A stretch of 64,000 nt of DNA from assembly GCA_031261395.1 (NCBI GenBank), contig JAISJT010000004.1, positions 8,675-72,674 on the forward strand, given 5' to 3'. Under the pieces are notes generated by a model. That model searched no databases. It was not told the origin of the DNA and saw only the letters and a list, made by a program, of their open reading frames with translations. Position numbers and translations under genes: made by a program. Source of the DNA: Eubacteriales Family XIII. Incertae Sedis bacterium. Its GTDB lineage: Bacteria; Bacillota; Clostridia; Peptostreptococcales; Anaerovoracaceae. Below are positions 10,640 through 54,264 of the stretch, in pieces. Position 1 is the first letter of the stretch, and the number at the start of each line of letters is the position of its first letter.

Positions 10640-10708
10640 TGTCATTCCGGGCGCCCCACTGTCATTCCGGGCGCCCCACTGTCATTCCGGGCGCCGACCC
10701 GGAATCCA
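10640..10708. repeat. TGTCAT-tagged palindromic element plus two 20-bp tandem partial copies in the clpB leader
   Basis: (tgtcattccgggcgccccac)x2 followed by tgtcattccgggcgccgacccggaatcca. Confidence 0.92.
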
Positions 10709-10732
10709 ATATAGTACTAGTATACCACAAAA

Positions 10733-10759
10733 TTAGCACTCTCAATCAGAGAGTGCTAA
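10733..10759. promoter_or_regulatory. CIRCE element (HrcA operator) upstream of clpB
   Basis: Exact TTAGCACTC-N9-GAGTGCTAA; extended -10 TGGTATACT lies just downstream on the minus strand. Confidence 0.95.
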
Positions 10760-10786
10760 TTATTATCGTTCTATCGTATTATCGTT

Positions 10787-11329
10787 CTAAACCAATTTTT
10801 CGACTTGCGGCCGATTCAGCCAGCGATTTTCATACACATACTTCGTTCCGGTGGCTGCATATACAATTAGGATAATCCCGCCGGCAATCGGGATCAGGCC
10901 CATGAAAACCCACGTCCACCTCTTGTTGATATCATGCAAACGACGTACCCAAATCGAAAGCCCCGGAATGATATTGGCAAAGCCCCAGAGATAATACACG
11001 ATACCAAAACCCGCAAAGGGAATCGCTTCGTCCGAACTCAATACTTCCGGACCCATCGTAAGGCCCAAAATAAGCCCCAAAATAATCCCGATGATAAGAT
11101 TCGCAAGCACGACCCACCAATAGCCGGCACGTGACGTCCGGTCATCAAAATTCACATAATTGCGCCAATATCCCCGATACGATTCCCAAAAGCCCGCCAT
11201 ACGATGCTCCCCCGGGATATAGACCGGAGGCGCCTGCCCGTACTGCGGCGGAACCTGTTGCTGTCCATACGGCGGCGGCGCTTGCTGCTGCTCATACGGC
11301 GGCGGTTGGTTTTGATCAAATTCGCTCAC
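10787..11329 (-). CDS. DUF805-family membrane protein with Pro/Gln/Tyr-rich N-terminus
   Basis: YWRNYVNFDDRTSRAGYWW, IPGLSIWVRRLHDINK, LIPIAGGIILI. Confidence 0.88.
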   Translation of the reverse strand: MSEFDQNQPPPYEQQQAPPPYGQQQVPPQYGQAPPVYIPGEHRMAGFWESYRGYWRNYVNFDDRTSRAGYWWVVLANLIIGIILGLILGLTMGPEVLSSDEAIPFAGFGIVYYLWGFANIIPGLSIWVRRLHDINKRWTWVFMGLIPIAGGIILIVYAATGTKYVYENRWLNRPQVEKLV

Positions 11330-11353
11330 TACGATTCTCCTCTTACTACAAGC

Positions 11354-11896
11354 TTAGTACGATCCGAGTCCTGCGAGTCCCGCGAGCCCGAAAGCGGTGC
11401 CCAAGGCCACGACTGCAACAATCGCGACAATGGTAACGATCGCGCCGATGATCAAACCGGCAAGGCTGAGTCCAAAGCCTACGCCCGACTTGTAATCGTT
11501 CTTGGCATTCTTCGCCAGCACCACGCCAACAATGCCGAGGATCAATCCGACAAACCCCGTGATAAAAGCAAAAACGATAGCGAGGATGCCGACGATGAGC
11601 GAAGGCACATGCAACGGTTTTTCCTCTGCATAGACGGGCTGACCGTACTGCGGCGGCGCCTGGCCGTACTGCGGCGGCGCTTGGCCGTACTGCGGAGGGG
11701 CCTGCTCATACTGCGGAGGAGCCTGCTCAAAAACAGGAGGGGCTTGTTCAAATTGCGGCGGCGTTTGCTCGTATTGCGGCGCAGCCTGCTCAAAAACAGG
11801 AGGCTCTTGATACTCGGGCGTTTCGGGTGCAGGTGTAGCTTCGGTCGGTTCCGGTGCGGCGATAGGCTCTTCCGGAGTTTGATCAAATTCACTCAT
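11354..11896 (-). CDS. DUF4190-like membrane protein with N-terminal QAPPQYG heptad repeats
   Basis: ATG 11896 with GAGG SD; SLIVGILAI...GLILGIVGVVLA...GLIIGAI hydrophobic C-terminus. Confidence 0.7.
   Translation of the reverse strand: MSEFDQTPEEPIAAPEPTEATPAPETPEYQEPPVFEQAAPQYEQTPPQFEQAPPVFEQAPPQYEQAPPQYGQAPPQYGQAPPQYGQPVYAEEKPLHVPSLIVGILAIVFAFITGFVGLILGIVGVVLAKNAKNDYKSGVGFGLSLAGLIIGAIVTIVAIVAVVALGTAFGLAGLAGLGSY
11640..11812 (-). repeat. Intragenic 21-bp tandem repeat, about 8 degenerate copies
   Basis: Encodes QEPPVFE QAAPQYE QTPPQFE QAPPVFE QAPPQYE QAPPQYG QAPPQYG QAPPQYG. Confidence 0.9.
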
Positions 11897-11975
11897 AATT
11901 TCGACCTCCAATTCATAAAAGTTCAAAAGTTAAAAAATATTACAAATTTAGTATACATTTATTTTTCGCTTGCGT

Positions 11976-12401
11976 CTATATTTCTTCTTCTTCTCCTACT
12001 TCATGCAAGGTTCCGTCATCGACAAACATGATGTTGCGCCGCCGCAGTTTTTCCGCAAGCGTGCCGACAAAGACAATCGTGATAAGGCCGACGTCCACGC
12101 CGGTCTGCTCTGGAAACTCTTTGCGGAGCTGCGACACCAATTCTTCGGCGGTTTCACGGATGCTCACACCAAAACGCACGATGAGAAAAAGTTTCAAATC
12201 AAAGACGCCGGCCCGGAGTCTGGCCCGCGCAAAACCGGTTTCGTCCTCGGCTGCCGCTTTGGCGCCTTTGCGAAGCCGTCCCTTTGGATCGGAGACGATG
12301 AGCCGTCCGTCCATACCATCAATAACACGGGCGCACACGCCTTCGATGACGGCACGCCCGATCTTGATTTTTCCGTTTTTGTTTTCTTCCTGATAAACCA
12401 G
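11976..12401 (-). CDS. Asp23/Gls24 family protein (start uncertain; CTG at 12401 proposed)
   Basis: GKIKIGRAVIEGV...LKLFLIVRFGVSIRETAEELV...TGVDVGLITIVFVG; GAGG 9 nt upstream of the CTG. Confidence 0.75.
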   Translation of the reverse strand: MVYQEENKNGKIKIGRAVIEGVCARVIDGMDGRLIVSDPKGRLRKGAKAAAEDETGFARARLRAGVFDLKLFLIVRFGVSIRETAEELVSQLRKEFPEQTGVDVGLITIVFVGTLAEKLRRRNIMFVDDGTLHEVGEEEEI

Positions 12402-12414
12402 AGGCTTTTTCCTC

Positions 12415-13242
12415 TTATTCCTCGCCCCAGGCCTTGCCGAGGGAACTCGTTGCCGCGCCGCACGGATCAACGACCGTTGCGCCGCCGTCGATCAGCAGGT
12501 TTTGTCCCGTGATATAGCTGGACTCGTCGCTCGCAAAAAATATTGCCGCAGGAGCGATCTCATCCGGCTCACAAGCGCGCCCCAGCGGAGTGAACTGCGT
12601 GAGCAGGCCGAGCGCTCCGTAGATGTCGGTCCCCTGCGATTTGGCGAGACCCTGCATAGAATTCTTCAGCATATCGGTCGCCGTAGCGCCCGGGCTGATC
12701 ATGTTGATACGGATACCCTTTGACCCATAATCGAGAGCCACCGCATTTGTGAATCCCTGCAGCCCCGCCTTTGTCGTGCTGTACGCCGGCATCGCCGGAA
12801 TAGCGCGCACACCCGCCAGGCTTGCTACATTGATGATGGATCCGCCGCCGCTCTCGATCATCTTTGGAATCGCAAAGCGTGTCATATAGAACGCGCCGTT
12901 GATATTTGTGTTGATGATGTCAAGCCACTGCTGCACGGGGATATCCGTGACCGTGCCGGCCGGATCGATACCCGCGTTGTTCACAAGGACGTCAAGCTTG
13001 CCAAACCTGGCCACTGCCGCCTCTACCATCGCCTCGGCGTCCTCAATCTTCGTGATGTCCCCTGCAAAGATCGCGAGACTGTCTTCGGGAAACCCTGCTG
13101 CGAACTCCTCGAGCTTTTCCTTGCGCCTGCCGGACACAAGGATCTTCGCGCCTTCTGCGAGAAAACCCTTCGCGATCGACGCGCCAATGCCGACGCCGCC
13201 GCCCGTAATGATCGCTACTTTGCCTTCCAATCTGCCTGCCAT
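12415..13242 (-). CDS. SDR family oxidoreductase
   Basis: TGGGVGIG, NNAG, YSTTK, ISPG, ITGQNLLIDGG. Confidence 0.95.
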   Translation of the reverse strand: MAGRLEGKVAIITGGGVGIGASIAKGFLAEGAKILVSGRRKEKLEEFAAGFPEDSLAIFAGDITKIEDAEAMVEAAVARFGKLDVLVNNAGIDPAGTVTDIPVQQWLDIINTNINGAFYMTRFAIPKMIESGGGSIINVASLAGVRAIPAMPAYSTTKAGLQGFTNAVALDYGSKGIRINMISPGATATDMLKNSMQGLAKSQGTDIYGALGLLTQFTPLGRACEPDEIAPAAIFFASDESSYITGQNLLIDGGATVVDPCGAATSSLGKAWGEE

Positions 13243-13269
13243 GCTATTTCTCCTTTCAAAAACTTTGCG

Positions 13270-14202
13270 CTATTCGTCATCTCCGCCCATATTTTCGTTC
13301 CACTGATCGTTCCATTCACGGCCCGCAAGGTACACGTTCGCGTTCATTTCATTGCTGCGCTTCAGGATCGCCTGGAACACGTAATTGTCCAAATCATAGT
13401 AGAACGATTTGGCCGCAAGCTCACCGGGAACTCCGTCTTTGAGCAGTTTTCTGTTTTCGTCAAGCGCGGCAATGGTCTTCTTGAGGTAGTCGATCGTGAA
13501 ATCAAGTGCACGTTCGTCAAAGCCAAGACCGAATGCCGTGTGACCGGGGATGATGACGTCGGCGCCCATCGCGCGGATCTTTTCCAAATCTTCGATCCAG
13601 TGCAGGCGGCCCGCGTCCGAAATTTCACACGTGAACGGATGCGCCATATTGAATACGACGTCCGAACAAGCGACAGTCTTGATAGAAGGAATCCACATGA
13701 TCGTATTGTATTTGAGATCGCCCCAGATATGCGGGATCACTTCGATCTCAAAGCCATCAAGGTCGATATCGCCTTTTTTGTAGGGAGTGACTTTGATCGG
13801 CTTGGCCGGGCAATTGAAGATACCTATCTCGTCCTGCCAATGCTCAAGCTTGGGCAAAAACTGTTCCTCAATGACGTGGATATCCTCTTCGTAGGCATAG
13901 ACCGGCGTACCGGGAAACGCTTCGAGAAAAACCTGTGTGCCAAAATAGTGATCCGGATGACCGTGACTGATAAACAAGGCCTTAGGTTTCCTTCCGTGTT
14001 CATAGATCTCCGCGACGACACGGTGGGCATTTGACAGCGTCCACTGCATATCCCAAACGATGCATTCTTCCTTGCCCATGACGATCACGGACACGGCTTG
14101 GAATCCATCATCATTGGACACACACGAAAGCGTCCAAAGCTTGTCCGGGCCGTGCCAATTTTCCCGGATTTCCATTCTTTCCTTGATTTTTTGAACAGAC
14201 AT
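13270..14202 (-). CDS. Metallo-beta-lactamase-fold hydrolase
   Basis: SHGHPDHYFG, SDVVFN, IIPGH. Confidence 0.88.
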   Translation of the reverse strand: MSVQKIKERMEIRENWHGPDKLWTLSCVSNDDGFQAVSVIVMGKEECIVWDMQWTLSNAHRVVAEIYEHGRKPKALFISHGHPDHYFGTQVFLEAFPGTPVYAYEEDIHVIEEQFLPKLEHWQDEIGIFNCPAKPIKVTPYKKGDIDLDGFEIEVIPHIWGDLKYNTIMWIPSIKTVACSDVVFNMAHPFTCEISDAGRLHWIEDLEKIRAMGADVIIPGHTAFGLGFDERALDFTIDYLKKTIAALDENRKLLKDGVPGELAAKSFYYDLDNYVFQAILKRSNEMNANVYLAGREWNDQWNENMGGDDE

Positions 14203-14271
14203 GAAATTCTCCTCCTCGTATTACAAGTTACGCAATATAAACATTTTACGCGAGCGGGCGCGATTGTCAAT

Positions 14272-14301
14272 AAAAAACCGGCCTCGCACGCGAAACCGGT
14301 T
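14272..14301 (-). terminator. Rho-independent terminator after rpmB
   Basis: Minus strand AACCGGTTTCGC-GT-GCGAGGCCGGTT followed by a T run. Confidence 0.8.
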
Positions 14302-14327
14302 GTCATGAATCATTTGATTAAAGCTAA

Positions 14328-14519
14328 TCAGACGGCCTTTGTCACTTTTCCGGCGCGCAGACACTTCGTACATACCTTGATATGCTTGGGTGTACCGCCT
14401 TCGATGACCTTGACGGTCTGAATATTGGCATCCCACTTACGCCGCGTGTGACGGTTGGAATGCGAAACGTTGTTGCCGCTTGTCTGGCCTTTTCCGCAAA
14501 TTTCACATTTGTTGGACAT
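14328..14519 (-). CDS. rpmB: 50S ribosomal protein L28
   Basis: KCEICGKGQTSGNNVSHSNRHTRRKWDANIQ...VCTKCLRAGKV. Confidence 0.97.
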   Translation of the reverse strand: MSNKCEICGKGQTSGNNVSHSNRHTRRKWDANIQTVKVIEGGTPKHIKVCTKCLRAGKVTKAV

Positions 14520-14615
14520 GGTTCTCCTCACTTTCTTGCAAACGCACGAGAACTAATGTACCATGAAGCGAAATGAATTGCAAGCAAAAATTTGGACAAA
14601 TGAGTGTGAAACAAA

Positions 14616-16271: not shown

Positions 16272-16278
16272 TAGTGAT

Positions 16279-16717: not shown

Positions 16718-16718
16718 A

Positions 16719-18725: not shown

Positions 18726-18737
18726 ATCAAATATCCA

Positions 18738-20354: not shown

Positions 20355-21584
20355 TTAGTACCCTTCCGCCGACGGGTCGCTCATGATTTCATCATAATAC
20401 CGCACCGTCGAAATCGTACCGCCGATCGCATCCTCGTAGCTTGTTTCCGAGACAAGGTACTGCCCCTCCGAAGTCCTCACGACATGGATCGGCACCCACT
20501 TGAACGAGCCGCTCTGCTGCCGCACATACACGCCGGGCACCCCCGCGCGTTCGGCCACAGACTTTTCATCGATCACAGCGCCGTGATAGACGTTGAACAC
20601 GACGTGCACTTCCTGTTTCCGAAATTTGTCGAGGTCGCGGTAATACATATCAGAGCGCAGCACGACGAAGATATCATCCCCTTGAGGCTCGGTCGATTCG
20701 ATGACAGCGGTCACCTTGGTCGTGTCCAAATCGAGCGTGACTTCGGCGCCCGGCACATAGCGCTTGGCCATCTCCCCGCCGGTATTCGCGATCCAAAAGA
20801 CAAAACGCCAGCTGTTGTTGTTTGTGATCTTGTAGACAGGCTCGCCCGCATTCGCCCAGCCGCGCTCGATATCCAGCGCCATATCCGGCAGCGTATTGAG
20901 CATAGTCTTTCCGAGCGTCCCGATCGATTCGGGACATATCCGCTTCTCAAAACCATCTGCATAATAACTCACTATCGCCGTCGTCGGAGAGACCCCGCCT
21001 TCACTCGGCGCAGCATTGCCTGCAGCCGACTGTATGACCTGCTCGAGCGTAGGTACCACCGGCCCCGCAGTTTCATCGTCCGCCCCGGAGGCGCCGTCTG
21101 CCACAGCGGACGAGCCGTCTGTGGATTCCGGCTCGGCGGCCGGAATGACAAGCGCCGCATCTGTCATTCCGGGCGAGCCGTTTGTCATTCCGGGCGCCGA
21201 CCCGGAATCCAAGTCCCGAGGCGCCGCATTTGTCATTCCGGGCTCCACGTCTGTCATTCCGGGCGCCGACCCGGAATCCACGCCCTGAGGCGCCGCTGCA
21301 TCCGGGTCGATATACACGACCTGCGTACCGGCGCGTATCTTCGTTCCCTCGGCCACCATATACTGCGGCGCACCCGCATAGGCCGCCGTATAGAGCGTTT
21401 CCTCGCGCACAAAGATGCCCGTTACCGTATCCTGCACGGGGAATTCCGCATACTTCACGATGACCGTCTCCTTGCCAATGCCCCCAATGAGCGGCGTCAC
21501 GTAAATGATGCTGTACAGGATGGCAACGACAATAACGAAGAAAACCGCGAAGATGACAAGTACTGCTTTTCTACCTGTAGACAT
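20355..21584 (-). CDS. Membrane-anchored HlyD/membrane-fusion-like protein preceding yggS, with in-frame palindrome insertions
   Basis: N-terminal TM, GIFVREET, EGTKIRAG, IVSYYADGFE, GEPVYKITNNNSW, GVYV, YDEI; this gene usually sits here in Clostridia. Confidence 0.75.
   Translation of the reverse strand: MSTGRKAVLVIFAVFFVIVVAILYSIIYVTPLIGGIGKETVIVKYAEFPVQDTVTGIFVREETLYTAAYAGAPQYMVAEGTKIRAGTQVVYIDPDAAAPQGVDSGSAPGMTDVEPGMTNAAPRDLDSGSAPGMTNGSPGMTDAALVIPAAEPESTDGSSAVADGASGADDETAGPVVPTLEQVIQSAAGNAAPSEGGVSPTTAIVSYYADGFEKRICPESIGTLGKTMLNTLPDMALDIERGWANAGEPVYKITNNNSWRFVFWIANTGGEMAKRYVPGAEVTLDLDTTKVTAVIESTEPQGDDIFVVLRSDMYYRDLDKFRKQEVHVVFNVYHGAVIDEKSVAERAGVPGVYVRQQSGSFKWVPIHVVRTSEGQYLVSETSYEDAIGGTISTVRYYDEIMSDPSAEGY
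21123..21280. repeat. Cluster of TGTCAT palindromic elements inside the CDS (3 full, 2 partial)
   Basis: Full copies 21183-21211 and 21252-21280 identical to 10680-10708; inverted variant 21123-21150; partial copies at 21162 and 21231, each 21 bp before a full copy. Confidence 0.92.
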
Positions 21585-21938: not shown

Positions 21939-22012
21939 CGTCATCCTGAACTTGTTTCAGGATCCCGGCAAAAGATATCTTGGCAAAGATGCTGAAACGA
22001 ATTCAGCATGAC
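21939..22012. repeat. Inverted pair of CGTCAT-tagged palindromes (second subfamily)
   Basis: cgtcatcctgaacttgtttcaggatc and, on the opposite strand, cgtcatgctgaattcgtttcagcatc. Confidence 0.8.
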
Positions 22013-22045
22013 GGGCTATTACTTAGAAGGAGAATGGAGTTAGCA

Positions 22046-23806
22046 ATGAAAAGAAATATGAGACTGCTGTCAATCGCGATTTCACTCTGTATGGCGCTCG
22101 GCCTGTTTGCGCTTGCACCGGGGGCAGCATATGCAGAAGTTGATGTGACGCCGCCGACGATAGGAGAGCCAGTGGTCGCATCCTCTGCGAGTTCGCCGTA
22201 TCACGCAGGTGATACCATCGTAATGACCGTGGATATACAGGACGAGTCGGGAATCGACGTAAGCACTTTATATACAGATATATATAACCCAAAAGGGTAT
22301 GTGGAACCAGTATATGGTGAAAATGTCAGTGGTAATAGCTACAGATTTACCTACGTGATACCGGAAAATCCATGGCCTGGGGTATGGAGTTTTTTCTATG
22401 TTGTTTGCAGCGATTTATCTTCAAATGCTAATCAAGAAGGTCGTTATATCTACGATGTTGCTCAATTCACAGTGGAAGCAACGCCCACAACTGATACGAC
22501 CGCACCCAATATTTCAAACATTTCAGTGACTCCGACTCAAAACAATCCCAACGATACCGTCACCGTCAGCGCTACGCTCACAGACAACGTGGCTGTCCAC
22601 CACGCGTTCTTCACTCTGATCAGCCCTTCAAATGTCGAGTATACAAATAATATACTTTCCAAAGTGGGCGAGACCGATACCTGGTCGGGTGGTTTCGCTT
22701 TGCCATCCGGCGCCGAATCCGGGATTTGGAGCGTTAAAATTTCGGCTTATGATGCCGCAAGTAATGTCAGCAATCAAACCCTGGGCAATATGTTCTCAGT
22801 CTCTGTGACATTTACTTCCGTGACGGGCGTTACGCTCAATACGCGTTCAATCAATCTCAGCGTAGGCGCAAACCAAACCCTCACGGCAAATATCTCTCCG
22901 GACAATGCCACAAATCAGAATGTGGAGTGGACTTCAACCAAACCAAACATCGCGAAGGTAGACCAGAACGGCAAAGTGACTGCCGTCAGCCCGGGCGCCG
23001 CGGCAATCACAGTCAAAACGGTAGACGGCGCATTTACCGATACCTGCAATGTCACGGTCAAACCTCTTGCAATCGGCGCGGCCGTCATCTCGCCCATCGC
23101 CGGTGTGACTTACGACGGCAAGGCGCAGACGCCTGCCTTGACGGTAAAACACGGCGGAACTACCCTCGCCGCGGGCAAGGACTTCACGATTGGCTGGACA
23201 AGCAATGTCAATGCAGGGACGGCGAAGGTCACCATCACGGGGAAGGGCAATTACAGCGGGACCAAGACGGCGACTTTCATTATTGCCAGGGCAAATATCG
23301 CGAAGCTGAGTTTTGCGGACATATCCGACAAGGAATGGACAGGGAAAAAGCTTGCTCCGGTACCGGCCGTCAAGCACGGCGACCTGAAGCTAAAGAACGG
23401 GACGCACTTCACGGTGACTCACGGGGCGAACAAAAACATCGGCAAGGGCACCCTCACTATCAAGGCGAAGAGCGCAAACTATACGGGCAGCGTCACGCGG
23501 ACCTTCAAGATCGTGCCAAAGGCTGTCGCCGTTTCCAAGGCGGCCCCAGGCAAAAAGCAGATCACGGTGACATGGAAAAAGACTGACGACACACAGAAAA
23601 TCACAAAGTATGAAGTTCGCTACAGGGTCAAAGGCGCTGCGGAGTGGAAGACCGCCACCGCCTCCGCCGGGAGTGCGAGCCTGACGATCAAGAAGCTGAG
23701 CAAAGGCAAGGTCTATCAGGTGCAGCTGCGTTCATACAAGACGGTGAACGGTGTGAAATATCAAAGCCCCTGGAGCACCACCAAGACCAGCGGCAAGGTG
23801 AAATAG
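22046..23806 (+). CDS. Secreted/surface protein with Ig-like (Big_2) and C-terminal fibronectin type III domains
   Basis: Signal peptide ending AYA; VTGVTLN...ISPDNATNQNVEWTS...VDQNGKVTAVSPG; TYDGKAQTP and GKGNYSG repeats; ITVTWKK...YEVRYR...LTIKKL...YQVQLRSYKTV...SPWS. Confidence 0.85.
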   Translation: MKRNMRLLSIAISLCMALGLFALAPGAAYAEVDVTPPTIGEPVVASSASSPYHAGDTIVMTVDIQDESGIDVSTLYTDIYNPKGYVEPVYGENVSGNSYRFTYVIPENPWPGVWSFFYVVCSDLSSNANQEGRYIYDVAQFTVEATPTTDTTAPNISNISVTPTQNNPNDTVTVSATLTDNVAVHHAFFTLISPSNVEYTNNILSKVGETDTWSGGFALPSGAESGIWSVKISAYDAASNVSNQTLGNMFSVSVTFTSVTGVTLNTRSINLSVGANQTLTANISPDNATNQNVEWTSTKPNIAKVDQNGKVTAVSPGAAAITVKTVDGAFTDTCNVTVKPLAIGAAVISPIAGVTYDGKAQTPALTVKHGGTTLAAGKDFTIGWTSNVNAGTAKVTITGKGNYSGTKTATFIIARANIAKLSFADISDKEWTGKKLAPVPAVKHGDLKLKNGTHFTVTHGANKNIGKGTLTIKAKSANYTGSVTRTFKIVPKAVAVSKAAPGKKQITVTWKKTDDTQKITKYEVRYRVKGAAEWKTATASAGSASLTIKKLSKGKVYQVQLRSYKTVNGVKYQSPWSTTKTSGKVK

Positions 23807-35849: not shown

Positions 35850-37697
35850 ATGACACAGAAGATCGGTTTCATCGGAACGGGAAAAGCCGCGTATAGCCTC
35901 GGCCGGCATATCGCCTCGCTTGGCGGGCCTGATTATGCGGTGTCGGGCTATCTCGGCAAATCCGAAGCGGCCTCAGCTGAGGCCGCCGCCTTCGTCCATG
36001 CGGAAGCTTTCCCGAATGCGGACGCCCTGTTCGCGGCGTCGGATCTGATCATCTTTGCCGTACCGGACGGCTCCATTGCTTCGGTATGGAAGAGCGTAAG
36101 GGACACGGCGATCGCCTCGGGCAAAACGGCAGCCCACCTGAGCGGCCTGCATTCTTCCCTGATCTTCGAGGGGGCCAACAGCGACAGAGCCGGATCGATC
36201 CACCCGATCGCCGCCCTCTTTGACAAAAAAACCGCCTATACAAAACTCAAAGGCGCCTATTTCACGGTCGAAGGAGGGGAGACTTTCTGCGGGCTCGCGG
36301 CAGGACTGCTTGCGAAATTAGGCAATCCTTTTGCCCTGATCGACGCCGACAAAAAAGCCCTCTATCACGCTGCATCGGCAGCCATGAGCAATCTCGTTTG
36401 CGCGATCACCTACGCAGGTGCATCATTATACGAAAACTGCGGGCTCCCGCCGGACTTCGCGGAAAACGCCTGGCGTTCGCTCTTTTTGGAAAACGCGAAA
36501 AACGTTGCGGAATACGGCCCCGTGCAAGCGCTGACCGGACCGCTCGAACGCGGAGACGCAGACACCCTCGCCCGGCACCTCCGCGCCATCACAGCATACG
36601 ATCCCCGCTACGCGGACGCCTATCTCGCGCTGTCAACCATTTTACTTGACGCCGCCCGCAAAAAACACCCGTCTCGCGATTACAAAGAAATAGAGCTGTT
36701 ATTGCAGCCGCCGCTGTCAGCGCCCGCAGACACCTGTCATTCGCCGACAGACACCTGTCATTCGCCGACTCGATCGGCGAATCCATGCAAATCATCCGTC
36801 ATGGATTCGCCGATCAAGTCGGCGAATGACGACGTATGTATCATCAATAATATCGAAGAAATGAAAACCGTCTGTGCCTCAGCGCGCCGGGCCGGAAGGC
36901 GCATCGGCCTTGTCCCGACAATGGGCGCACTGCACGAAGGGCATCTCTCCCTGATTCGGCGCGCGGCGGACGAGTGCGATCTTGTCATCGTCAGCGTCTT
37001 TGTCAACCCGATTCAGTTTGATGATGCAAGCGACCTCGCGCGCTATCCCAAAAACCTCGGCGCCGACGCGCGCATGGCCGCAGGCGCCGGCGCCGATCTC
37101 GTCTTTGCGCCCACTGTCGCTGAGATGTACCCCGATGGCTTCTCGACCTTCGTCGATATGACAGGCGTTTCCGAGCGGCTTTGCGGCGCCTCAAGGGAAG
37201 CGCACTTCCGCGGCGTCTGCACAGTAGTTACAAAACTCTTTCATATCATGACCCCAGACCGGGCCTACTTCGGAGAAAAAGACGCCCAGCAGCTTGCTGT
37301 CGTACGCAAGATGGCGCGAGAGCTGTCCATGCCTGTGACGGTCGTAGGATGCCCAACGGTACGCGAACCGGACGGCCTGGCAATGAGCTCACGCAACACA
37401 AGACTGTCACCACAGGAAAGAGCCGCCGCAAGCTGCCTATATGCCGCCCTACAAGAAGCCGCCAAAAGTTTTGCCGCAGGCGAAACCAGCCCCGAAAAAC
37501 TCCGCGCCGCAATAAAAGCCCGCATAGAAAGCGACCCGCAAACACATACCGAAAGCGAGCCAAGCATCCAAATAGATTACATAGAAATCATTGATCCGGA
37601 AACATTCACCCCCGCCGACCCGGTCAAGCAAGGCGACATAGCCGCCATAGCCGTCTACATCAACCACGTCCGCCTCATCGACAACACACGTTTTTAG
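35850..37697 (+). CDS. panC: Fusion: Rossmann/DUF2520 (PanG-like ketopantoate reductase) + pantoate-beta-alanine ligase
   Basis: N half IGFIGTGKA, AVPDG, HLSG, SIHP, KALYHAA, ALTGPLERGD; C half VPTMGALHEGHLSL, VFVNPIQF, HFRGV, FGEKDAQQ, REPDGLAMSSRN, VRLIDN; one open frame. Confidence 0.9.
   Translation: MTQKIGFIGTGKAAYSLGRHIASLGGPDYAVSGYLGKSEAASAEAAAFVHAEAFPNADALFAASDLIIFAVPDGSIASVWKSVRDTAIASGKTAAHLSGLHSSLIFEGANSDRAGSIHPIAALFDKKTAYTKLKGAYFTVEGGETFCGLAAGLLAKLGNPFALIDADKKALYHAASAAMSNLVCAITYAGASLYENCGLPPDFAENAWRSLFLENAKNVAEYGPVQALTGPLERGDADTLARHLRAITAYDPRYADAYLALSTILLDAARKKHPSRDYKEIELLLQPPLSAPADTCHSPTDTCHSPTRSANPCKSSVMDSPIKSANDDVCIINNIEEMKTVCASARRAGRRIGLVPTMGALHEGHLSLIRRAADECDLVIVSVFVNPIQFDDASDLARYPKNLGADARMAAGAGADLVFAPTVAEMYPDGFSTFVDMTGVSERLCGASREAHFRGVCTVVTKLFHIMTPDRAYFGEKDAQQLAVVRKMARELSMPVTVVGCPTVREPDGLAMSSRNTRLSPQERAAASCLYAALQEAAKSFAAGETSPEKLRAAIKARIESDPQTHTESEPSIQIDYIEIIDPETFTPADPVKQGDIAAIAVYINHVRLIDNTRF
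36727..36830. repeat. TGTCAT palindrome pair plus 21-bp tandem duplication forming the panG-panC linker
   Basis: (cagacacctgtcattcgccga)x2; full element 36756-36785; inverted copy 36802-36830. Confidence 0.9.
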
Positions 37698-40488: not shown

Positions 40489-40564
40489 TGGATCCCGGGT
40501 CGGCGCCCGGGATGACAGGGGGGCGGCTTCGCTCGGGATGACAGGGGCTTTGCTTGGGATGACA
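40489..40564. repeat. Intergenic TGTCAT palindrome plus two partial copies
   Basis: tggatcccgggtcggcgcccgggatgaca 40489-40517, then gggatgaca ending at 40543 and 40564. Confidence 0.9.
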
Positions 40565-42892: not shown

Positions 42893-43741
42893 TTATTCAC
42901 TTTCCGGAAGACTTTCCGGAAGACTTTCCGAACTTGCAGGATCTTCCGGCGAGGTTTCGGCGACTGCCGCATCCAAAGCCGCAGGATCATCCGGGGTGAA
43001 CGAGCAGGCCCCGGTGTTTGTCACGTTGATTTTGCCGCGTTCGATGCCCTTGCCAAGCAAATCGGCGACCACTTTTTTCAGCTCATCGATGTTGTCTTCG
43101 ATATCCTTCAAACTTCCTTCTATATATAGTGTATCGAGAATATAGGCCCGCGGCACGACAGCGGTGACGTCAAGGCGCTCAGCGAAAAAATCATGCAGGC
43201 TCATCAGCTGGAAAAAATCGAGACTCGGCTTCAGCAAATCCGCCTCGTTCACCTTGAGGGGCTGCCCGGGAACCGGCGCTTGCGGCGTCAATCCGACGAC
43301 GAGCGGCAATTTGCTTCCCGCCTCGTCCGCGCGCAGGATGGTCCCGTCAAAATTGAGCACCAACACAGACTCTCCCGAAGCGACCAACACTTCCTCTGTA
43401 CGCTCGTCCAAAGAGATGGCGATGGCGTCCGGCAGATCCCATTTCGCCTGCGCCGACCGCACGTAGGGATCGGTTTCAAGGCGTTCTTCGATCTGCGAAA
43501 CGCGCACAGTGAAGATATTTTTGCCCTTTGGAACCCCTGCAAGCTCGATGACCTGCGCCGTCGTAAAATGCGCATTGCCCTCAACGGAAAAATTCTTGAC
43601 GTCGAAAATCGAAGACGTGCCGAGCAGGTAGAGCCCCGCGATGATGAGGACCACGATGAAGATATTGAGGAAGAAATGCTGCTTCCTCCGTTTGCCGCGC
43701 GCCGGCCTGCGCCTATGCGAAGTTTGTTCCGAATAACTCAT
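42893..43741 (-). CDS. ftsQ: FtsQ/DivIB (POTRA) cell division protein
   Basis: Basic N-terminus, TM, FDVKNFSVEGN, NIF, PYV, LPDAI..ER; position between murG and ftsZ. Confidence 0.85.
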   Translation of the reverse strand: MSYSEQTSHRRRPARGKRRKQHFFLNIFIVVLIIAGLYLLGTSSIFDVKNFSVEGNAHFTTAQVIELAGVPKGKNIFTVRVSQIEERLETDPYVRSAQAKWDLPDAIAISLDERTEEVLVASGESVLVLNFDGTILRADEAGSKLPLVVGLTPQAPVPGQPLKVNEADLLKPSLDFFQLMSLHDFFAERLDVTAVVPRAYILDTLYIEGSLKDIEDNIDELKKVVADLLGKGIERGKINVTNTGACSFTPDDPAALDAAVAETSPEDPASSESLPESLPESE

Positions 43742-44825
43742 CTACGATCACTTTCACTGCGTCCGGTTTTGCACCGCGCTTCGCCGCCTCGCCCATTGCA
43801 CGGAGTTTGCCGGGGTCGCCCGCAAGCTCTTCGATCTTTTCGGCAAGTCCGCCGTCTGCGATTTCACTTTCGTCCAAAATCAAAGCCGCCCCCAAATCCT
43901 CAAGCGCTTTTGCATTGTATAATTGATGGTTGCCTACGACGTTTGGCGAGGGGATCAGGATTGACGCCCTGCCGGCTGCGGCCACCTCGCTGACAGTCAG
44001 TGCGCCGGCCCGTGAGACGATTAAATCAGCGGCTGAATAGTACCGCGAGATCGGGTCTGCGTAGTCCATGACGTGTACAGAGTCCATGGATCCCGGGTCG
44101 GCGCCCGGGATGACAAGCGCCGCAAGCACTTCGTCGTAAAGCTGCGGGCCTGTCGCGAAGAGGATAGTGTACCCCTTTCCGCCGCCTAATTTTTTGATCA
44201 CATCGATAGCCGCCTCGTTGATACGGGATGCGCCCTGACTGCCGCCAAAGATGAATACCGCCGTATTGCCCTCGGGTATGCCGAGATCGGCCCGCGCCTC
44301 TTCACGGTCAAGCGCAAAAAATTCCGCACGCACGGGATTGCCGCTGACCACGATTTTGTCCTTTTCTTTGAAATGCTCGGCCGCCTCGGGGAAGGCGACA
44401 AAGACGCGGTCTGCATACCGCTCAGCCAGGCGGTTGGCCAAGCCGGGCAGCACGTTTTGCTCCTGAATCACGGCCTGGATACCCTGTTTCCGGGCGGCGC
44501 GAATGACGGGTCCTGCCACATGCCCACCTGTTCCCATGACAATGTCGGGGCGAAAATCCCTGAAGATTTTCTTGATTTGCCGCGAGGAGCGAACAAGACT
44601 CCGCAGTGTGGAAATATTATTAAAGGGATTTCGGCGGTCAAATCCCTGCGCGTCGATGAAGGTCTGTGCGTATCCGTAACGGCCGACGATATCCTTGCCG
44701 ATCTCCCAGCTTGCAGAGACAAACAAAATCTCCGCGTCCGGGTCGCGCGCGCGGACTTCTGCGGCGATCGCGAGCGCCGGGTAGATATGCCCGCCTGTGG
44801 ATGAACTGGCCAAGAGCAATCTCAT
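43713..44825 (-). CDS. murG: MurG glycosyltransferase with an in-frame palindrome
   Basis: TGGHIYPALA, QEQNVLPGLAN, GNPVR, GGSQGA, SRAGALTVSE, HQLYNA; ATG overlaps ftsW TGA. Confidence 0.95.
   Translation of the reverse strand: MRLLLASSSTGGHIYPALAIAAEVRARDPDAEILFVSASWEIGKDIVGRYGYAQTFIDAQGFDRRNPFNNISTLRSLVRSSRQIKKIFRDFRPDIVMGTGGHVAGPVIRAARKQGIQAVIQEQNVLPGLANRLAERYADRVFVAFPEAAEHFKEKDKIVVSGNPVRAEFFALDREEARADLGIPEGNTAVFIFGGSQGASRINEAAIDVIKKLGGGKGYTILFATGPQLYDEVLAALVIPGADPGSMDSVHVMDYADPISRYYSAADLIVSRAGALTVSEVAAAGRASILIPSPNVVGNHQLYNAKALEDLGAALILDESEIADGGLAEKIEELAGDPGKLRAMGEAAKRGAKPDAVKVIVDELFGTNFA
44087..44115. repeat. TGTCAT palindrome inside murG
   Basis: 29 bp identical to intergenic 40489-40517; encodes VIPGADPGS. 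Confidence 0.92.
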
Positions 44826-47312: not shown

Positions 47313-47334
47313 GATGCTCTTATTATTTCCCTGT

Positions 47335-48411: not shown

Positions 48412-49899
48412 CTACGCCTCCGTCCCCTGCTCTATCAGGGCATTTGCTACGATTTCCATATGCATCGAATGCGAGCCTTTCACCAAATATGCGTCGCCGG
48501 GGGTTTTGCCGGCCAAAAGAGCGGCGATCATTTCTTCCCGGTCTGGGCAAACACGAATATGGTCCGTGCCTGCGATTTCTCCTGCGCCCGCCGCTATTGC
48601 GCGCGCCTTTTCGCCGAAACACACGAGACTGTCGATCCGCCCGGCCGACAGATCGGCGCCGATCTCGCTCCCGAGGGAACGGTGGAGCGCCTCCGAATCC
48701 GGACCGAGTTCATTCATGTCCGCGAGTACTGCGATCCTGCGCGACGCCTCTGCCGATTTCAAAAAAATCAAGCCGCTCCGGCAGCTGTCCGGACTCGCGT
48801 TGTACGTATCGTCTATGACCAAGATGCCATCTTTTCGGATCGTTTGCAAACGGTGCGGCGTGCGCGCGAGGTTTTTCAGCGCGGCAGCGGCGCCGGCGAG
48901 GTCAATCCCGAGACGCGCTACCGCAGCGCAGGCCAGCGCGGACGTAGCGGCGGCATAGTCTCCCGGCACCGGCACGAGGAAGCGTTCCGCCATCTCGCCG
49001 CTCTCGATCTCAAAAGAGGCAGCCGCGGATTCTGTATCAAACCGTACCGGACCGTAATAATAATCCGCGTCCCCACCCGTGCGGCCTTTCGGCGCTACCT
49101 CGATCAAACGGTAACCCCTCGCCTTGCTGTCCGCACGCGCGCGCTGCGTCAGAGGCCAGTGGTTTTCGCGGTCGATCACGAGCCGGCCGCCCTCGCCCAT
49201 TTGACTGGCAGCCGCCAATTTTTCGAGCATGATACCGTCGTCCGAATCAAAGCATTCGCGGTGCGAGATACCGATATTGGTGATCGCAGCCACATCCGGC
49301 CCGGCGATCTGCGCGAGGCGGCCTATCTCCCCCGGACCGCCCATACCCATTTCGAGCACGAGCGCCTCCGTATCCGCAGACATCCCGAGGATGGTCTTGG
49401 GCAGACCGATTTGATTGTTGAAATTTCCCTGCGTCGCCACCGTATGAAAATCGTCTTTGACTATGCAGGCAATCATATCTTTGAGCGTCGTCTTGCCGAC
49501 GCTGCCGGTCACAGCGATCACATAGGGATCGACTTTGCTTCTATAATATGCGGCAAGATCCTGATAGGCGCGAAGCGTGTCCTCAACAACGATGACCACC
49601 GGCCCCCCGGGCGTCCCAACTGTCATCCCGGGCGTCCCAACTGTCATCCCGGGCTTGACCCGGGACCCATCCGAAACAACAAGAACCGCCGCGCCCTTTG
49701 CCGCCGCCTCCTCAAGATGATCGTGCGCATCATGGTTTTCCCCGATCAGCGCGAAAAATATCTCGCCGCCCGACAGCTCCCTCGTATCCGTAGAAACAGG
49801 GGCCGGCGTCTGCGCCATAGCAGGCGACCCAAACCGCATATCGACGGATCCGCCGATCTTGTCAATGATTTCTTCCGCTGTGAAAAGTCCCGCCATCAC
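48412..49899 (-). CDS. murF: UDP-MurNAc-tripeptide-D-Ala-D-Ala ligase with in-frame palindrome insert
   Basis: STDTR, TGSVGKTT, GNFNNQIGLP, LEMGM, DDTYNASP, DMNELG, VKGS. Confidence 0.95.
   Translation of the reverse strand: MMAGLFTAEEIIDKIGGSVDMRFGSPAMAQTPAPVSTDTRELSGGEIFFALIGENHDAHDHLEEAAAKGAAVLVVSDGSRVKPGMTVGTPGMTVGTPGGPVVIVVEDTLRAYQDLAAYYRSKVDPYVIAVTGSVGKTTLKDMIACIVKDDFHTVATQGNFNNQIGLPKTILGMSADTEALVLEMGMGGPGEIGRLAQIAGPDVAAITNIGISHRECFDSDDGIMLEKLAAASQMGEGGRLVIDRENHWPLTQRARADSKARGYRLIEVAPKGRTGGDADYYYGPVRFDTESAAASFEIESGEMAERFLVPVPGDYAAATSALACAAVARLGIDLAGAAAALKNLARTPHRLQTIRKDGILVIDDTYNASPDSCRSGLIFLKSAEASRRIAVLADMNELGPDSEALHRSLGSEIGADLSAGRIDSLVCFGEKARAIAAGAGEIAGTDHIRVCPDREEMIAALLAGKTPGDAYLVKGSHSMHMEIVANALIEQGTEA
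49606..49669. repeat. TGTCAT palindrome plus 21-bp tandem duplication inside murF
   Basis: (cccgggcgtcccaactgtcat)x2 then cccgggcttgacccgggaccca; encodes GSRVKPGMTVGTPGMTVGTPG. Confidence 0.92.
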
Positions 49900-49900
49900 T

Positions 49901-52045: not shown

Positions 52046-52559
52046 ATGCCTTCTCTTTGAGATAGGTCGCAAAATCCATCCCCGGTGAGGGCAGATCGGC
52101 TACATAGATATACTGGTCAAACCCGGGGTCTTTCATGCCAAGGTCCGACTCGGCCTTTTCCCTGATCATTTCGATATTTTGCGACTGTTTGATGTCGATC
52201 TTGACCTGTGTAATGTCATCCTCGGTCTGTGCGATATTTTGTTTCAGGTCATTGATTTCCTTTTGCGTGACCGCTGCCTGAGCAGCCATCATGATGACAG
52301 CCATCGCGATCGCGGAGACAATGATGATCAGGAGAGCAATCACCCGTATCTCCGCGCCGCTAAAAATACGAGCCTCTGGCTCTGGGTGGCACTCGGCTTC
52401 TATGCGGGAGGGAAGCGGCCTCAGGGCTTCGATGCGCGGCGCCGGTTCAAACGCCGGTTGCCGCGACCGATCCGGTCTGACCTGGCGGGCGTAACCGGAA
52501 CGGTTGCCCGAAGCAGTCCTATTCGTCCGTCTGTCTCTTTCGGCAGTAGCACGCGCCAT
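52008..52559 (-). CDS. FtsL-like cell division protein
   Basis: Basic N-terminus, single TM, coiled coil, IREKAESDLGM; position between rsmH and PBP. Confidence 0.75.
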   Translation of the reverse strand: MARATAERDRRTNRTASGNRSGYARQVRPDRSRQPAFEPAPRIEALRPLPSRIEAECHPEPEARIFSGAEIRVIALLIIIVSAIAMAVIMMAAQAAVTQKEINDLKQNIAQTEDDITQVKIDIKQSQNIEMIREKAESDLGMKDPGFDQYIYVADLPSPGMDFATYLKEKAYGENAATTEIPE

Positions 52560-52600
52560 TTTGTATTTCGCCCCCTTTCGTTGGTCTTTTGTTACTCTGT

Positions 52601-53545
52601 TTACAATTTTTCGAGGATACGAAGTTTGGCGCTTCTTGACCTCGGGTTTCTGCTGATTTCTTCTTCCGTCGGCAATATCGGTTTTCGATTCACGCGTCTG
52701 CCGTCCGCCACCTTGCCGCATACGCAGACCGGAAGTCCCTTTGGACATTCGCAAGGATCCTCCCTTTTGAGGAAAAACTCCTTCACGATGCGGTCTTCAA
52801 GCGAGTGAAAGGTGATGACCGCCAGCCTGCCCTTTGGCTTCAGAACTTCGGCAAATGCCGCAAGTCCCCGCTCGAGCGATCCAAGTTCATCGTTGACCTC
52901 GATGCGGATCGCCTGAAAGGTTCGCTTTGCCGGGTGCGGCCCATCGCGTCTGGCCGCCGCCGGGATCGCGTTTTTGATCACCCCGGTCAGCCGGGCGGTC
53001 GTCAGGATCGGCGCGATCTTCCTTTCCTTCACGATGAACGCTGCGATACGCTTCGCCCATCTCTCTTCACCGTAGTCCCGGATAATGCCGTACAGATCCT
53101 GTTCGCTGTATCCGTTCACTACATCAGCTGCTGTTAATTCCCCGTCTCGCTCCCCGCCGTTCATGCGCATGGAGAGCGGACCATCTTGCATATACGAAAA
53201 CCCGCGCGCCGGGTCATCCAACTGTTTTGACGAAACGCCCAAATCGAGGATCGCCCCGTCGAGCCCGTCTATTCCGTTTGCGGAAAGCGCCTGTGCGATC
53301 TCCGTGAAATTGCCCTGAAAAAATATCTTTCGCGGGAGGCCGCTCTCTATCCGCTTTGCTGCGGCCGATAGAGCCTCACCATCCTTGTCCATGCCGATCA
53401 GCGTACCCTTCGCGCCGATCTTTTCCGCTATCGCCAGCGCATGACCGCCGCCGCCGATCGTTCCGTCACAGATGACGGCGCCCTCCCGGAGGGCCAGCCC
53501 ATCCACCGCTTCATTCAGAAGTACGGAGGTATGGTCATAGTTCAT
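52601..53545 (-). CDS. rsmH: 16S rRNA C1402 methyltransferase RsmH
   Basis: HTSVLL, DGTIGGGGHA, DLGVSSKQLD, RGFSY, RTFQAIRIEVN, FHSLEDRIVK, NPRSRSAKLR. Confidence 0.97.
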   Translation of the reverse strand: MNYDHTSVLLNEAVDGLALREGAVICDGTIGGGGHALAIAEKIGAKGTLIGMDKDGEALSAAAKRIESGLPRKIFFQGNFTEIAQALSANGIDGLDGAILDLGVSSKQLDDPARGFSYMQDGPLSMRMNGGERDGELTAADVVNGYSEQDLYGIIRDYGEERWAKRIAAFIVKERKIAPILTTARLTGVIKNAIPAAARRDGPHPAKRTFQAIRIEVNDELGSLERGLAAFAEVLKPKGRLAVITFHSLEDRIVKEFFLKREDPCECPKGLPVCVCGKVADGRRVNRKPILPTEEEISRNPRSRSAKLRILEKL

Positions 53546-53972
53546 TATGATTCGCGACTTCGAGGATCAGGGCGCTGAGGTTTAGCGTCTTCGGATCCAT
53601 CTCTACGTCATACGCCTTCTTGTCCCAAAGTTCGATACGATCGCCCACTCCGACAAATACGATGTCCTTCTCAATACCGGCATATGCGAGATAGTCCGGC
53701 GGTATATTGATCCGGCCGTGTCCGTCGATTTCGACTTCTCTGGAATTGCCGAGGATTTGCCGCTGCAGTTTGCGGCCGGCGCCATCCTTGAGGCTGAGAG
53801 GTGTGATGTATTCCGCGAGAAAGTCATTCCACTTGTCCTGCGCCATGACATAAATGCAGGCGTCAAGACCGATCGCCAGCCAAACGCGCTCCTCAAGCCC
53901 GTACCGGAGTTTCGTCGGTACGAAGGCGCGACCCTTGCTGTCAACCGTATTGAAATAACTTCCTGTCAGCAT
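53535..53972 (-). CDS. mraZ: Transcriptional regulator MraZ
   Basis: DSKGR and DGHGRI repeats, VGVGDRIELW; first gene of dcw cluster. Confidence 0.95.
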   Translation of the reverse strand: MLTGSYFNTVDSKGRAFVPTKLRYGLEERVWLAIGLDACIYVMAQDKWNDFLAEYITPLSLKDGAGRKLQRQILGNSREVEIDGHGRINIPPDYLAYAGIEKDIVFVGVGDRIELWDKKAYDVEMDPKTLNLSALILEVANHNEL

Positions 53973-54149
53973 CCTGCCTTACTTCCCCGTTTTTCAAAGA
54001 GATTCAACTCACGAACCATACCACCCAATAAACATAATCCTACTTTATCCCATTTTAAATACGAAAATCAAGGATTTTTTGCACTAAAGTAACACCACAG
54101 TCCCCCAAATTTGTGAATTTCCCGTTGCAGGATTGTGTTTTTTAGGTTA

Positions 54150-54196
54150 CGTCAATATATTGTGTTGAACAGGGGTTCGGACACCATATATTGGTG
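54150..54196. promoter_or_regulatory. Tandem NrdR-box-like motifs, 31 bp apart
   Basis: cgtCAATATATTGtgt (54150-54165) and acaCCATATATTGgtg (54181-54196) versus consensus acaCwAtATaTwGtgt. Confidence 0.6.
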
Positions 54197-54264
54197 CATG
54201 CCAGCCGCCGGTTGCTTGCACAATCGCGCGGGGATGACAACGAACGGAAAAATACAAAAAGTGC

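What the first reader, a model, noticed from the sequence alone, without database searches (positions are those of the whole stretch)
10640..54239. A ~28-bp TGTCAT palindrome family colonises both intergenic DNA and protein-coding genes in-frame
Seen: consensus TGTCAT(T/C)CCGGG-loop-CCCGG(A/G)ATCCA at 10680, 21183, 21252, 40489, 44087, 49642, with variants at 21123, 36756, 36802 and a half copy near 54230. Four loci are inside ORFs (membrane-fusion gene, panG-panC, murG, murF) and all keep the frame. Five of six reading frames of the element are stop-free, and several are used (VIPGADP, DSGSAPGMT, CHSP). Known: Rickettsia palindromic elements and CGTC-tagged REPs insert in-frame into proteins. 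Inference: an active analogous element is creating new peptide segments in a clostridial genome at a density of four genes in 64 kb.
Basis: partly seen in the sequence, partly recalled or inferred. Interest (0 to 1): 0.85.

Follow-up and report, generated by a model that had tools for sequence, protein, structure and literature searches.

The report
Nuclease-linked hairpin repeats inside clostridial proteins
This gut clostridium carries about 330 copies of a known nuclease-linked DNA hairpin repeat, a quarter of them in frame inside about 64 genes (some essential) where they are likely translated as short flexible loops; the phenomenon is known, but the host group is new, and a sister species has unrelated repeats in many of the same loops.

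Summary
All listed copies are present and four window genes stay in frame. Genome-wide there are 334 full copies (control 1); 84 of 331 lie deep inside 64 predicted genes. The repeats are CGTC-tagged REPs / Ssn-related motifs (SRM). An ssnA-type GIY-YIG nuclease gene bracketed by two copies lies on another contig. In-frame CGTC/RPE inserts are published for Rickettsia, and this scan has found the same system on other DNA (CPR and Dependentiae-like genomes). New here: (1) a Clostridiales Family XIII-like host, with no Bacillota among the SRM-rich rows I read in the published survey; (2) selection on the peptides, as basic frames are avoided (6 of 54 against 24 expected); (3) one-sided tandem half-copies that lengthen the inserts; (4) a sister species carrying a repeat in the same loop at 9 of 28 sites (background 0.2%), five times from an unrelated RAYT-like family. 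A repeat-free congener has shorter loops at 12 of 14 sites; some inserts replace rather than add sequence. Present-day mobility, translation and the nuclease's role in copying are inferred, not shown. New member of a known kind.

The parts
10640..10708 (+). Intergenic array: two 20-bp half copies (10640, 10660) and a full 29-bp element (10680-10708), between the clpB start (10626, - strand) and a CIRCE-type operator
20355..21584 (-). Host gene: HlyD_2 / TIGR02828-like membrane fusion protein, 409 aa, 37-40 aa longer at the insert than the G001/G002 orthologs
21122..21280 (.). In-frame cluster: full elements 21122-21150 (-), 21183-21211 (+), 21252-21280 (+), with half copies at 21162 and 21231; encodes DSGSAPGMT twice and VIPAAEPES
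35850..37697 (+). Host gene: DUF2520 (PanG-like) fused to PanC, 615 aa; two separate genes in G001, G003 and G063
36735..36831 (.). In-frame dimer with GTCA ends outside (36756-36785 +, 36802-36831 -) plus a 21-bp half copy, forming most of the PanG-PanC linker (CHSPT...DSPIKSAND)
40489..40564 (-). Intergenic array between modA and a molybdopterin-binding gene: full element 40489-40517 and two degenerate half copies
43713..44819 (-). Host gene murG, 368 aa
44087..44115 (-). Single in-frame element encoding VIPGADPGS (MurG residues about 235-245), in the connector between a helix and a strand of the C-terminal domain; the sister species G002 has an unrelated palindrome in the same loop
48412..49899 (-). 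Host gene murF, 495 aa
49606..49669 (+). In-frame array: 28-bp element 49642-49669 with 21-bp tandem half copies; read on the opposite strand as GSRVKPGMTVGTPGMTVGTPG; 9-13 aa longer than the G001-G003 orthologs
54228..54239 (-). Half copy only, intergenic upstream of mraZ; no hairpin

Best explanation
These are CGTC-tagged hairpin repeats (Ssn-related motifs) that have multiplied to about 330 copies, likely through a horizontally acquired SsnA-type single-strand DNA nuclease whose gene sits between two copies elsewhere in the genome, and those inside genes are likely translated and kept only where they preserve the frame and give a tolerated acidic, Pro/Gly-rich loop. Shown: element anatomy (YGTC tag, 8-9 bp stem, CCA tail), four subfamilies, the ssnA-type gene between inverted copies, 20-fold depletion from coding DNA, the frame bias, the one-sided half-copy arrays, and reuse of the same loops by other repeats in a sister species. 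Inferred mechanism: SsnA nicks the hairpin-bearing strand a few bases 5' of the tag (shown for Neisseria SsnA in PMC11893778, not for this protein). Repair of that nick by microhomology or template switching both seeds copies at new sites and re-copies the 5' arm with a few flanking bases; slippage then extends these 18-24 bp units. Purifying selection removes nearly all coding hits and leaves a small set of permissive loops, which become more permissive once lengthened. The peptides are most likely near-neutral passengers.
For: Anatomy matches CGTC REPs as described in PMC3733652: stems are 8 or 9 bp in 325 of 334 copies. The GIY-YIG ORF at G000:C112:5169 is flanked on both sides by inverted copies of a genome-wide subfamily. 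Its Y9/Y20/E67 have the spacing of the catalytic Y6/Y17/E64 of SsnA. It is 39% GC against a 56% gene mean. Such a gene was found in 6 of 401 family genomes, each next to SRM-like hairpins, and its nearest relatives lie in many other phyla. 4 of the 7 family genomes with 20 or more strict-pattern hits have it. Density is 46 per Mb in coding and 914 per Mb in non-coding DNA. 0 of 83 used frames have 3 or more Arg against 43 of 307 open unused frames; net-basic frames are used 6 of 54 times against 24.3 expected, p 8e-8. Half-copies lie on the tag side in 145 of 323 elements, while tail-side duplications number 11; their spacers match their own upstream flank in 39 of 119 cases against 9.4 expected. 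G002 has a full repeat at 9 of 28 mappable sites against 12 of 5508 random windows, and at 5 of 16 against 1 of 53 in a matched variable-loop control, p 0.002. Loops are longer than in repeat-free G001 at 12 of 14 well-anchored sites. The MurG model places the insert in a lower-confidence connector (pLDDT 69-71 against a mean of 88).
Against: One nuclease gene was found for four subfamilies (genome 83% complete), and it is flanked by the smallest (47 copies); two subfamilies do not fit the published SRM pattern (0 of 131 and 0 of 47). No ssnA was found in G002, G150 or G140, which hold repeats (incomplete genomes), while G309 and G096 have ssnA with 0-1 strict-pattern hits. No fixed target-site duplication (31 of 320 with 5 nt or more, 11 in the control). 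Only 26 of 142 outermost half-copies are exact tandem duplications. Against G002 only 17 of 28 sites are longer in this genome and 10 are shorter. The SsnA tree is unresolved. No proteomics. The multiple-of-three rule for coding periods (103 of 103) is partly built into the definition of an open gene.
Confidence: 0.7

Rival explanations
1. The repeats are spread by host recombination, gene conversion or another transposase; SsnA only recognises and cuts them, for instance to restrict incoming DNA as in Neisseria.
For: The published function of SsnA is cleavage of transforming ssDNA. Repeat-bearing G002 has no detectable ssnA but has a RAYT-like transposase. One nuclease serves four subfamilies.
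Against: No Y1 transposase was found in G000 (83% complete). G002's copies are degenerate (84 distinct of 118) and G000's homogeneous (81 distinct of 331), as expected if loss of ssnA ends copying. The half-copy arrays lie on the side where SsnA cuts.
Confidence: 0.17
2. The loops shared with G002 are not independent landings in a selection-limited set of sites. An ancestral repeat sat there and was later overwritten, because hairpins are preferred targets for other hairpin elements.
For: One of the nine shared sites has the same subfamily, orientation and frame; three more G002 sites hold only degenerate half copies. Mixed-subfamily dimers and tandems are common in G000 (28 of 84 close pairs). 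Net length change is often near zero.
Against: Five of nine shared sites hold an unrelated RAYT-linked family that is essentially absent from G000 (2 hits against 122). Several of these loops are already long or variable in repeat-free G001 and in the family. The two processes can act together.
Confidence: 0.3
3. The repeats are kept for a host function (RNA hairpins that tune transcripts; peptide linkers such as the PanG-PanC and HisZ-HisG joints).
For: 129 of 174 classifiable intergenic copies lie between co-oriented genes. One array sits in the clpB leader. The PanC-linker insert persists in an 81%-identical protein.
Against: Most family genomes lack the repeats (20 or more hits in 7 of 401). 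Only 14 lie between convergent genes. The peptides differ from site to site and between sister species at the same site. The PanG-PanC fusion occurs without repeat peptides in two relatives and in Actinobacteria.
Confidence: 0.1
4. The inserts are assembly artefacts or lie in shadow ORFs.
For: The genome is a fragmented metagenome assembly, the gene calls are from my own model, and the read check used contigs, possibly of the source sample.
Against: The junction is tiled with no differences at single-copy depth. 44 of 63 host genes have homologs in the fetched parts of G001/G002, many named housekeeping genes. The same insert is in an independent protein record.
Confidence: 0.02

Closest known systems
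CGTC-tagged REPs, families CGTC-1 to -4 (Di Nocera et al. 2013, PMC3733652)
   Same: Unpaired CGTC/TGTC tag, 8-9 bp stem opening with AT, short loop, CCA tail, several coexisting subfamilies, intragenic units, no flanked tyrosine transposase.
   Different: The paper lists Proteobacteria, Chlorobi, Bacteroidetes, Spirochaetes and Thermotogae, not Bacillota. The 29-mers have a 6-nt loop (4-5 in the paper). Clusters and head-to-tail pairs are called rare there; here tandem pairs (47) and half-copy arrays (145 of 323) are common.
NTS / Ssn-related motifs with the SsnA GIY-YIG ssDNA nuclease, cd10448 (PMC11893778, Nat Commun 2025)
   Same: SRM-ssnA-SRM cassette; single-domain GIY-YIG of about 95 aa with matching catalytic spacing; one subfamily nearly equals the NTS consensus; 97 of 334 copies fit the published SRM pattern.
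   Different: NTS are 2% intragenic in N. meningitidis; here 25% are deep inside genes and 34% counting gene ends. Two subfamilies escape the published pattern. The 3' copy is read into the nuclease's own C-terminus (122 aa). Named clostridia in the survey have at most 12 SRM per Mb; this genome has 58 per Mb by the same pattern.
Rickettsia palindromic elements (RPE-1; RPE-4 and RPE-6 are CGTC REPs); read through PMC2229807 and PMC3733652
   Same: In-frame palindrome insertions in conserved proteins, tolerated and near neutral (19 genes for RPE-1; guanylate kinase with its insert is active).
   Different: RPE-1 is 105-146 bp. The unit here is 27-30 bp and lengthens by tandem half-copies. About 64 genes are hit, in a gut clostridium rather than an intracellular alphaproteobacterium.
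REP/RAYT and TIR/TIRYT systems (PMC3733652)
   Same: Short hairpins bracketing their enzyme gene and spread genome-wide; the sister species G002 has such a family in the same protein loops.
   Different: No Y1/HUH transposase was found in G000; the linked enzyme is a GIY-YIG nuclease and there is no GTAG tag.

Membership tests
CGTC-tagged REP | Unpaired CGTC/TGTC tag at one end | tested here: met
   T 71% and C 24% before GTCA in 320 arrays; tag unpaired in 4 of 5 folds of full copies
CGTC-tagged REP | 8-9 bp stem beginning with AT, with compensatory variants | tested here: met
   325 of 334 have 8 or 9 bp; four subfamilies differ by paired changes
CGTC-tagged REP | 4-5 nt loop | tested here: inconclusive
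   4-5 nt in 27-, 28- and 30-mers, 6 nt in 29-mers; the paper allows exceptions
CGTC-tagged REP | 3-nt tail, mostly CCA | tested here: met
   C 100%, C 88%, A 88%; the first C is required by my search rule
CGTC-tagged REP | Dispersed multicopy family, mostly extragenic | tested here: met
   206 of 331 intergenic; 20-fold denser outside genes
Ssn / SRM | Repeats fit the published degenerate SRM pattern | tested here: inconclusive
   97 of 334 fit; TTCCCG 32 of 50 and YCCGG 65 of 95 fit, TTCGCCG 0 of 131 and TTGCGG 0 of 47 do not
Ssn / SRM | Small single-domain GIY-YIG gene flanked by the repeats on both sides | tested here: met
   G000:C112:5169-5537, PF01541 E 6e-17, inverted copies at 5132 and 5485
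Ssn / SRM | Catalytic Tyr, Tyr, Glu (Y6, Y17, E64 in Neisseria SsnA) | tested here: met
   Y9, Y20, E67 with the same 11 and 47 residue spacing; by spacing, not by direct alignment to the Neisseria protein
Ssn / SRM | CDD cd10448 assignment | not testable with these tools
   CDD is not held; 62 of 80 nearest homolog loci carry the same kind of hairpin
Ssn / SRM | Site-specific cleavage of ssDNA 5' of the hairpin | not testable with these tools
   Needs purified enzyme
GTAG REP / RAYT | GTAG tag and a flanked Y1 (HUH) transposase | tested here: not met
   The tag is YGTC; PF01797 not found in G000, 83% complete
MITE / RPE-1 | 100-200 bp unit with terminal inverted repeats and a target-site duplication | tested here: not met
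   Unit is 27-30 bp; no fixed duplication

The most novel reading that the evidence does not exclude
SsnA is the copying engine of its own hairpins, and its 5' nick writes the one-sided half-copy arrays, so that each intragenic copy becomes a growing peptide-repeat generator. The proteome of this termite-gut clostridial genus offers only a small fixed set of landing loops (roughly 75 among 613 shared genes, from 28 x 24 / 9), which unrelated hairpin families hit again and again: a natural insertion-tolerance map of essential enzymes. At least one gene fusion (panG-panC) was made by such an insert.
Probability: 0.3. Interest if true: 0.72.

Novelty: new member of a known kind. Interest (0 to 1): 0.43.

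Why it matters
The element and in-frame insertion are published, so the basic surprise is small. The case is useful because it extends SRM/Ssn expansions to a clostridial lineage at a load like that of Rickettsia and Neisseria. It shows at genome scale that the encoded peptides are filtered by selection. It offers a set of congeners (one repeat-free, one decaying with a second repeat family, two with ssnA) in which the open question of whether Ssn nucleases multiply their repeats can be tested. The convergence of unrelated repeats on the same loops of MurG, AddA, AddB, HisZ-HisG and others bears on where proteins tolerate new sequence.

Tried and rejected
RAYT/Y1 transposase in G000: not found. 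The second small GIY-YIG (C96) is not bracketed by repeats and was set aside. Fixed target-site duplication: none. Half-copy arrays as blocks copied from a common donor: rejected, 134 of 142 innermost units are distinct. 'The repeat created the panG-panC fusion': not established; fusions without repeat peptides exist; kept only in the novel case. Rfam: no match in the window. Single-sequence MurG fold failed (pLDDT 36); the alignment-based fold worked. SsnA tree: 80 rows, 92 columns, mostly unresolved, six loci left out including G096's; no donor can be named. Sequencing runs: no RNA holder listed; the second run held too little to test polymorphism; no contig showing an empty site appeared among the joints listed, which is not proof of absence. 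The loose pattern has a high background in AT-rich genomes; the strict one was used for counts. G001 was compared on 0.85 of 2.0 Mb and G002 on 1.84 of 2.7 Mb; 5 poorly anchored G001 sites and 6 unmapped G002 sites were dropped. Literature searches found no paper on intragenic CGTC/SRM repeats in Bacillota or on unrelated families converging on the same loops; subscription papers (the original RPE, Wolbachia and Methanocaldococcus papers) were not searchable. Earlier scan notes: nothing on this genome or by sequence.
Full report
Observation. The unit is YGTC, an 8-9 bp stem that opens with AT, a 4-6 nt loop and a CCA tail; five full window copies fold into this hairpin (z -1.8 to -3.6), and the copy at 54228 is a half without a stem. 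The membrane-fusion gene, the DUF2520-PanC gene, murG and murF stay open through the repeats. A structural scan of the 2.06 Mb genome (83% complete) gave 334 full copies against 1 in the reversed genome. The 331 with stems of 7 bp or more fall into four subfamilies related by paired stem changes (131, 95, 50, 47, plus 8 others). With my own hexamer gene model (1750 genes, 89% coding), 84 copies lie deep inside 64 genes, 28 near gene ends, 13 across an end and 206 between genes. That is 46 per Mb in coding and 914 per Mb in non-coding DNA. Across the panG-panC insert, read-derived contigs overlap at single-copy depth with no differences (possibly the source sample), and an independent 81%-identical protein has the same insert peptides.

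Host. The nearest named RsmH relatives are 'Clostridiales Family XIII bacterium' and 'Clostridiales bacterium' (that this corresponds to Anaerovoracaceae is recalled). The best holding run is a termite gut metagenome.

What it is. I read parts 1-6 of 8 of PMC3733652. It defines CGTC-tagged REPs with this anatomy, equates some with Neisseria dRS3 and Rickettsia RPE-4/RPE-6, reports intragenic copies and lists five phyla without Bacillota. From PMC11893778 I read passages and sections 7, 8, 10 and 12. It links these motifs (NTS/SRM) to ssnA, a small GIY-YIG nuclease that cuts ssDNA a few bases 5' of the hairpin, notes that NTS are 2% intragenic in N. meningitidis, and only hypothesises a role in expansion. 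The genome holds such a gene at C112:5169, bracketed by inverted copies of the TTGCGG subfamily; the 3' copy is read into its own C-terminus. Its Y9/Y20/E67 have the spacing of the catalytic residues. It is 39% GC against a 56% gene mean, is found in 6 of 401 family genomes, each beside hairpins, and has 54-68% identical relatives across many phyla, 62 of 80 of them with the hairpin nearby. No Y1 transposase was found. In the paper's survey table I read parts 1-4 and 6 of 271 (rows down to about 31 SRM per Mb, part 5 not read) and saw no Bacillota by name; searched clostridial genera reach at most 12 per Mb. This genome has 120 hits of the same pattern, 58 per Mb, though two of its subfamilies escape that pattern. 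With a strict pattern, 7 of 401 family genomes have 20 or more hits; this one has the most (246) and congener G001 has none.

Are the peptides insertions? In repeat-free G001 (0.85 of 2.0 Mb held) the loop is shorter at 12 of 14 well-anchored sites (median 13 aa; clean cases dusB +44, ligA +46, mnmE +36, tlyA +23); 5 poorly anchored sites were dropped. Against G002 (1.84 of 2.7 Mb held) 17 of 28 sites are longer, 1 is equal and 10 are shorter; 6 unmapped sites were dropped. The MurG loop is 7 residues longer than in G001 but only about 2 longer than in most of 29 family orthologs. So many inserts add sequence and some replace it. Of 63 host genes, 44 have homologs in the fetched DNA; homolog scans name leuS, ligA, mutL, recG, addA, addB, carA, def, ybeY, miaB, ylqF, PBP1A and others. 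The MurG model (pLDDT 88) puts the insert in a connector between helix 225-235 and strand 248-252, with local pLDDT 69-71.

Selection on the peptides. None of 83 used frames has three or more Arg, against 43 of 307 open but unused frames. Among genes with homologs, net-basic frames are used 6 of 54 times against 24.3 expected (p 8e-8). Common peptides are DPGSAPGMT, VIPGADPGS, DSPVKPAND and WIPGQARDD. This is indirect evidence that the inserts are translated.

One-sided arrays. 145 of 323 elements carry tandem half-copies on the tag side; tail-side duplications number 11. Periods are multiples of three in 103 of 103 coding cases and 77 of 144 intergenic cases (partly by definition). Units are site-specific (134 of 142 distinct), adjacent units are 85% alike beyond the head, and spacers match their own upstream flank in 39 of 119 cases against 9.4 expected. 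They therefore arise locally, on the side where Neisseria SsnA cuts. Only 26 of 142 are exact duplications, and there is no fixed target-site duplication.

Reuse of the same loops. G002 has a second, unrelated palindrome family (122 hits; 2 in G000) that flanks a RAYT-like gene. It lies in the same MurG loop as the element here. At 9 of 28 mappable sites G002 has a full repeat, against 12 of 5508 random windows (p 1e-16): five of the unrelated family, three of another subfamily, orientation or frame, and one apparently shared. In a matched control of loops where G000 is longer, the figures are 5 of 16 with and 1 of 53 without a G000 repeat (p 0.002). At gene level 11 of 21 G002 host genes are also G000 hosts among 613 orthologs (p 3e-10). 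Either selection leaves few permissive loops, or hairpins overwrite older hairpins; both may hold.

The panG-panC gene. The two halves are separate, overlapping genes in G001, G003 and G063, and here the repeats form most of the linker. However, two relatives at 50-54% identity are fused without recognisable repeat peptides in the linker, and the fusion is common in Actinobacteria, so the repeat may have entered an existing linker.

Mechanism and confidence. Best reading (0.7): an imported ssnA cassette drove a burst of copying; nick repair 5' of the hairpin seeds copies and half-copy arrays; selection keeps the frame-preserving, acidic or Pro/Gly-rich inserts in permissive loops as near-neutral passengers. 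The anatomy, cassette, depletion, frame bias and loop reuse are shown; copying by SsnA, translation and present activity are inferred. G000's copies are homogeneous (207 of 331 in eight sequences) and G002's decayed (35 of 118), and no ssnA was found in G002. This fits a recent burst, but the shared panC insert shows that some copies are old.

Novelty. In-frame palindrome insertion is known from Rickettsia (PMC2229807, passages; PMC3733652). Earlier notes of this scan report the same SRM/SsnA system in genes of CPR and Dependentiae-like genomes (unchecked). Searches found no paper on such a load in Bacillota or on convergence of unrelated families on the same loops. The original RPE papers were seen only as citations, and the intragenic table in the supplement of PMC3733652 was not read and may hold overlapping target genes. 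Verdict: new member of a known kind, with a new host group and unusually clear population-level signatures; interest 0.43.

Noticed in passing
window 10733-10759: Perfect CIRCE-type inverted repeat (HrcA operator; name recalled) upstream of clpB. The repeat array lies between it and the clpB ribosome-binding site, so it probably sits in a heat-shock leader.
   Followed up: partly
L053:12180-13052 (G002:C2): RAYT-like Y1 transposase gene (PF01797; NF047646 below cut-off) flanked by a separate palindrome family with 122 hits in G002, several in frame in genes (murG, murF, addA, addB, hisZ-hisG, hypF).
   Followed up: partly
L001:1489-1857 and L036: In both G000 and G110 the ssnA-type gene has no stop before its 3' hairpin and ends in repeat-encoded MDCGS(A/G)PAMT; the effect on the enzyme is unknown.
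   Followed up: partly
L035 (C112:5600-5756) and L036 flanks: The sequence beside both cassettes resembles fragments of Rpn / PD-(D/E)XK transposase-like genes (recalled resemblance, not tested).
   Followed up: no
P0003: A relative's PanG-PanC fusion carries about 65 residues of GRND/GRDD tandem repeats, typical of read-through half-copies, in a different loop.
   Followed up: no
G001 mutL ortholog and G002 orthologs: Congeners have long low-complexity loop expansions at the same sites even without these repeats (G001 MutL loop 61 aa longer), which suggests a genus-wide tolerance of loop inflation.
   Followed up: no
G000:C14:5226-6953: HisZ-HisG fusion shared by G000, G001 and G002; the linker holds an SRM array in G000 and the unrelated repeat in G002.
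   Followed up: partly
G110, G150, G140, G080, G267, G344, G217: Other family genomes in other genera have their own SRM expansions (146, 51, 23, 28, 17, 16 and 12 strict hits); their intragenic share was not examined.
   Followed up: no
G000 genome-wide: Dimers with tags outside have a tight 15-16 bp spacing (17 of 28), a possible footprint of the copying step.
   Followed up: no
window 54373-57888 and 21980-23806: Large predicted surface proteins with Pro/Asp-rich or Ig-like repeats; not examined.
   Followed up: no
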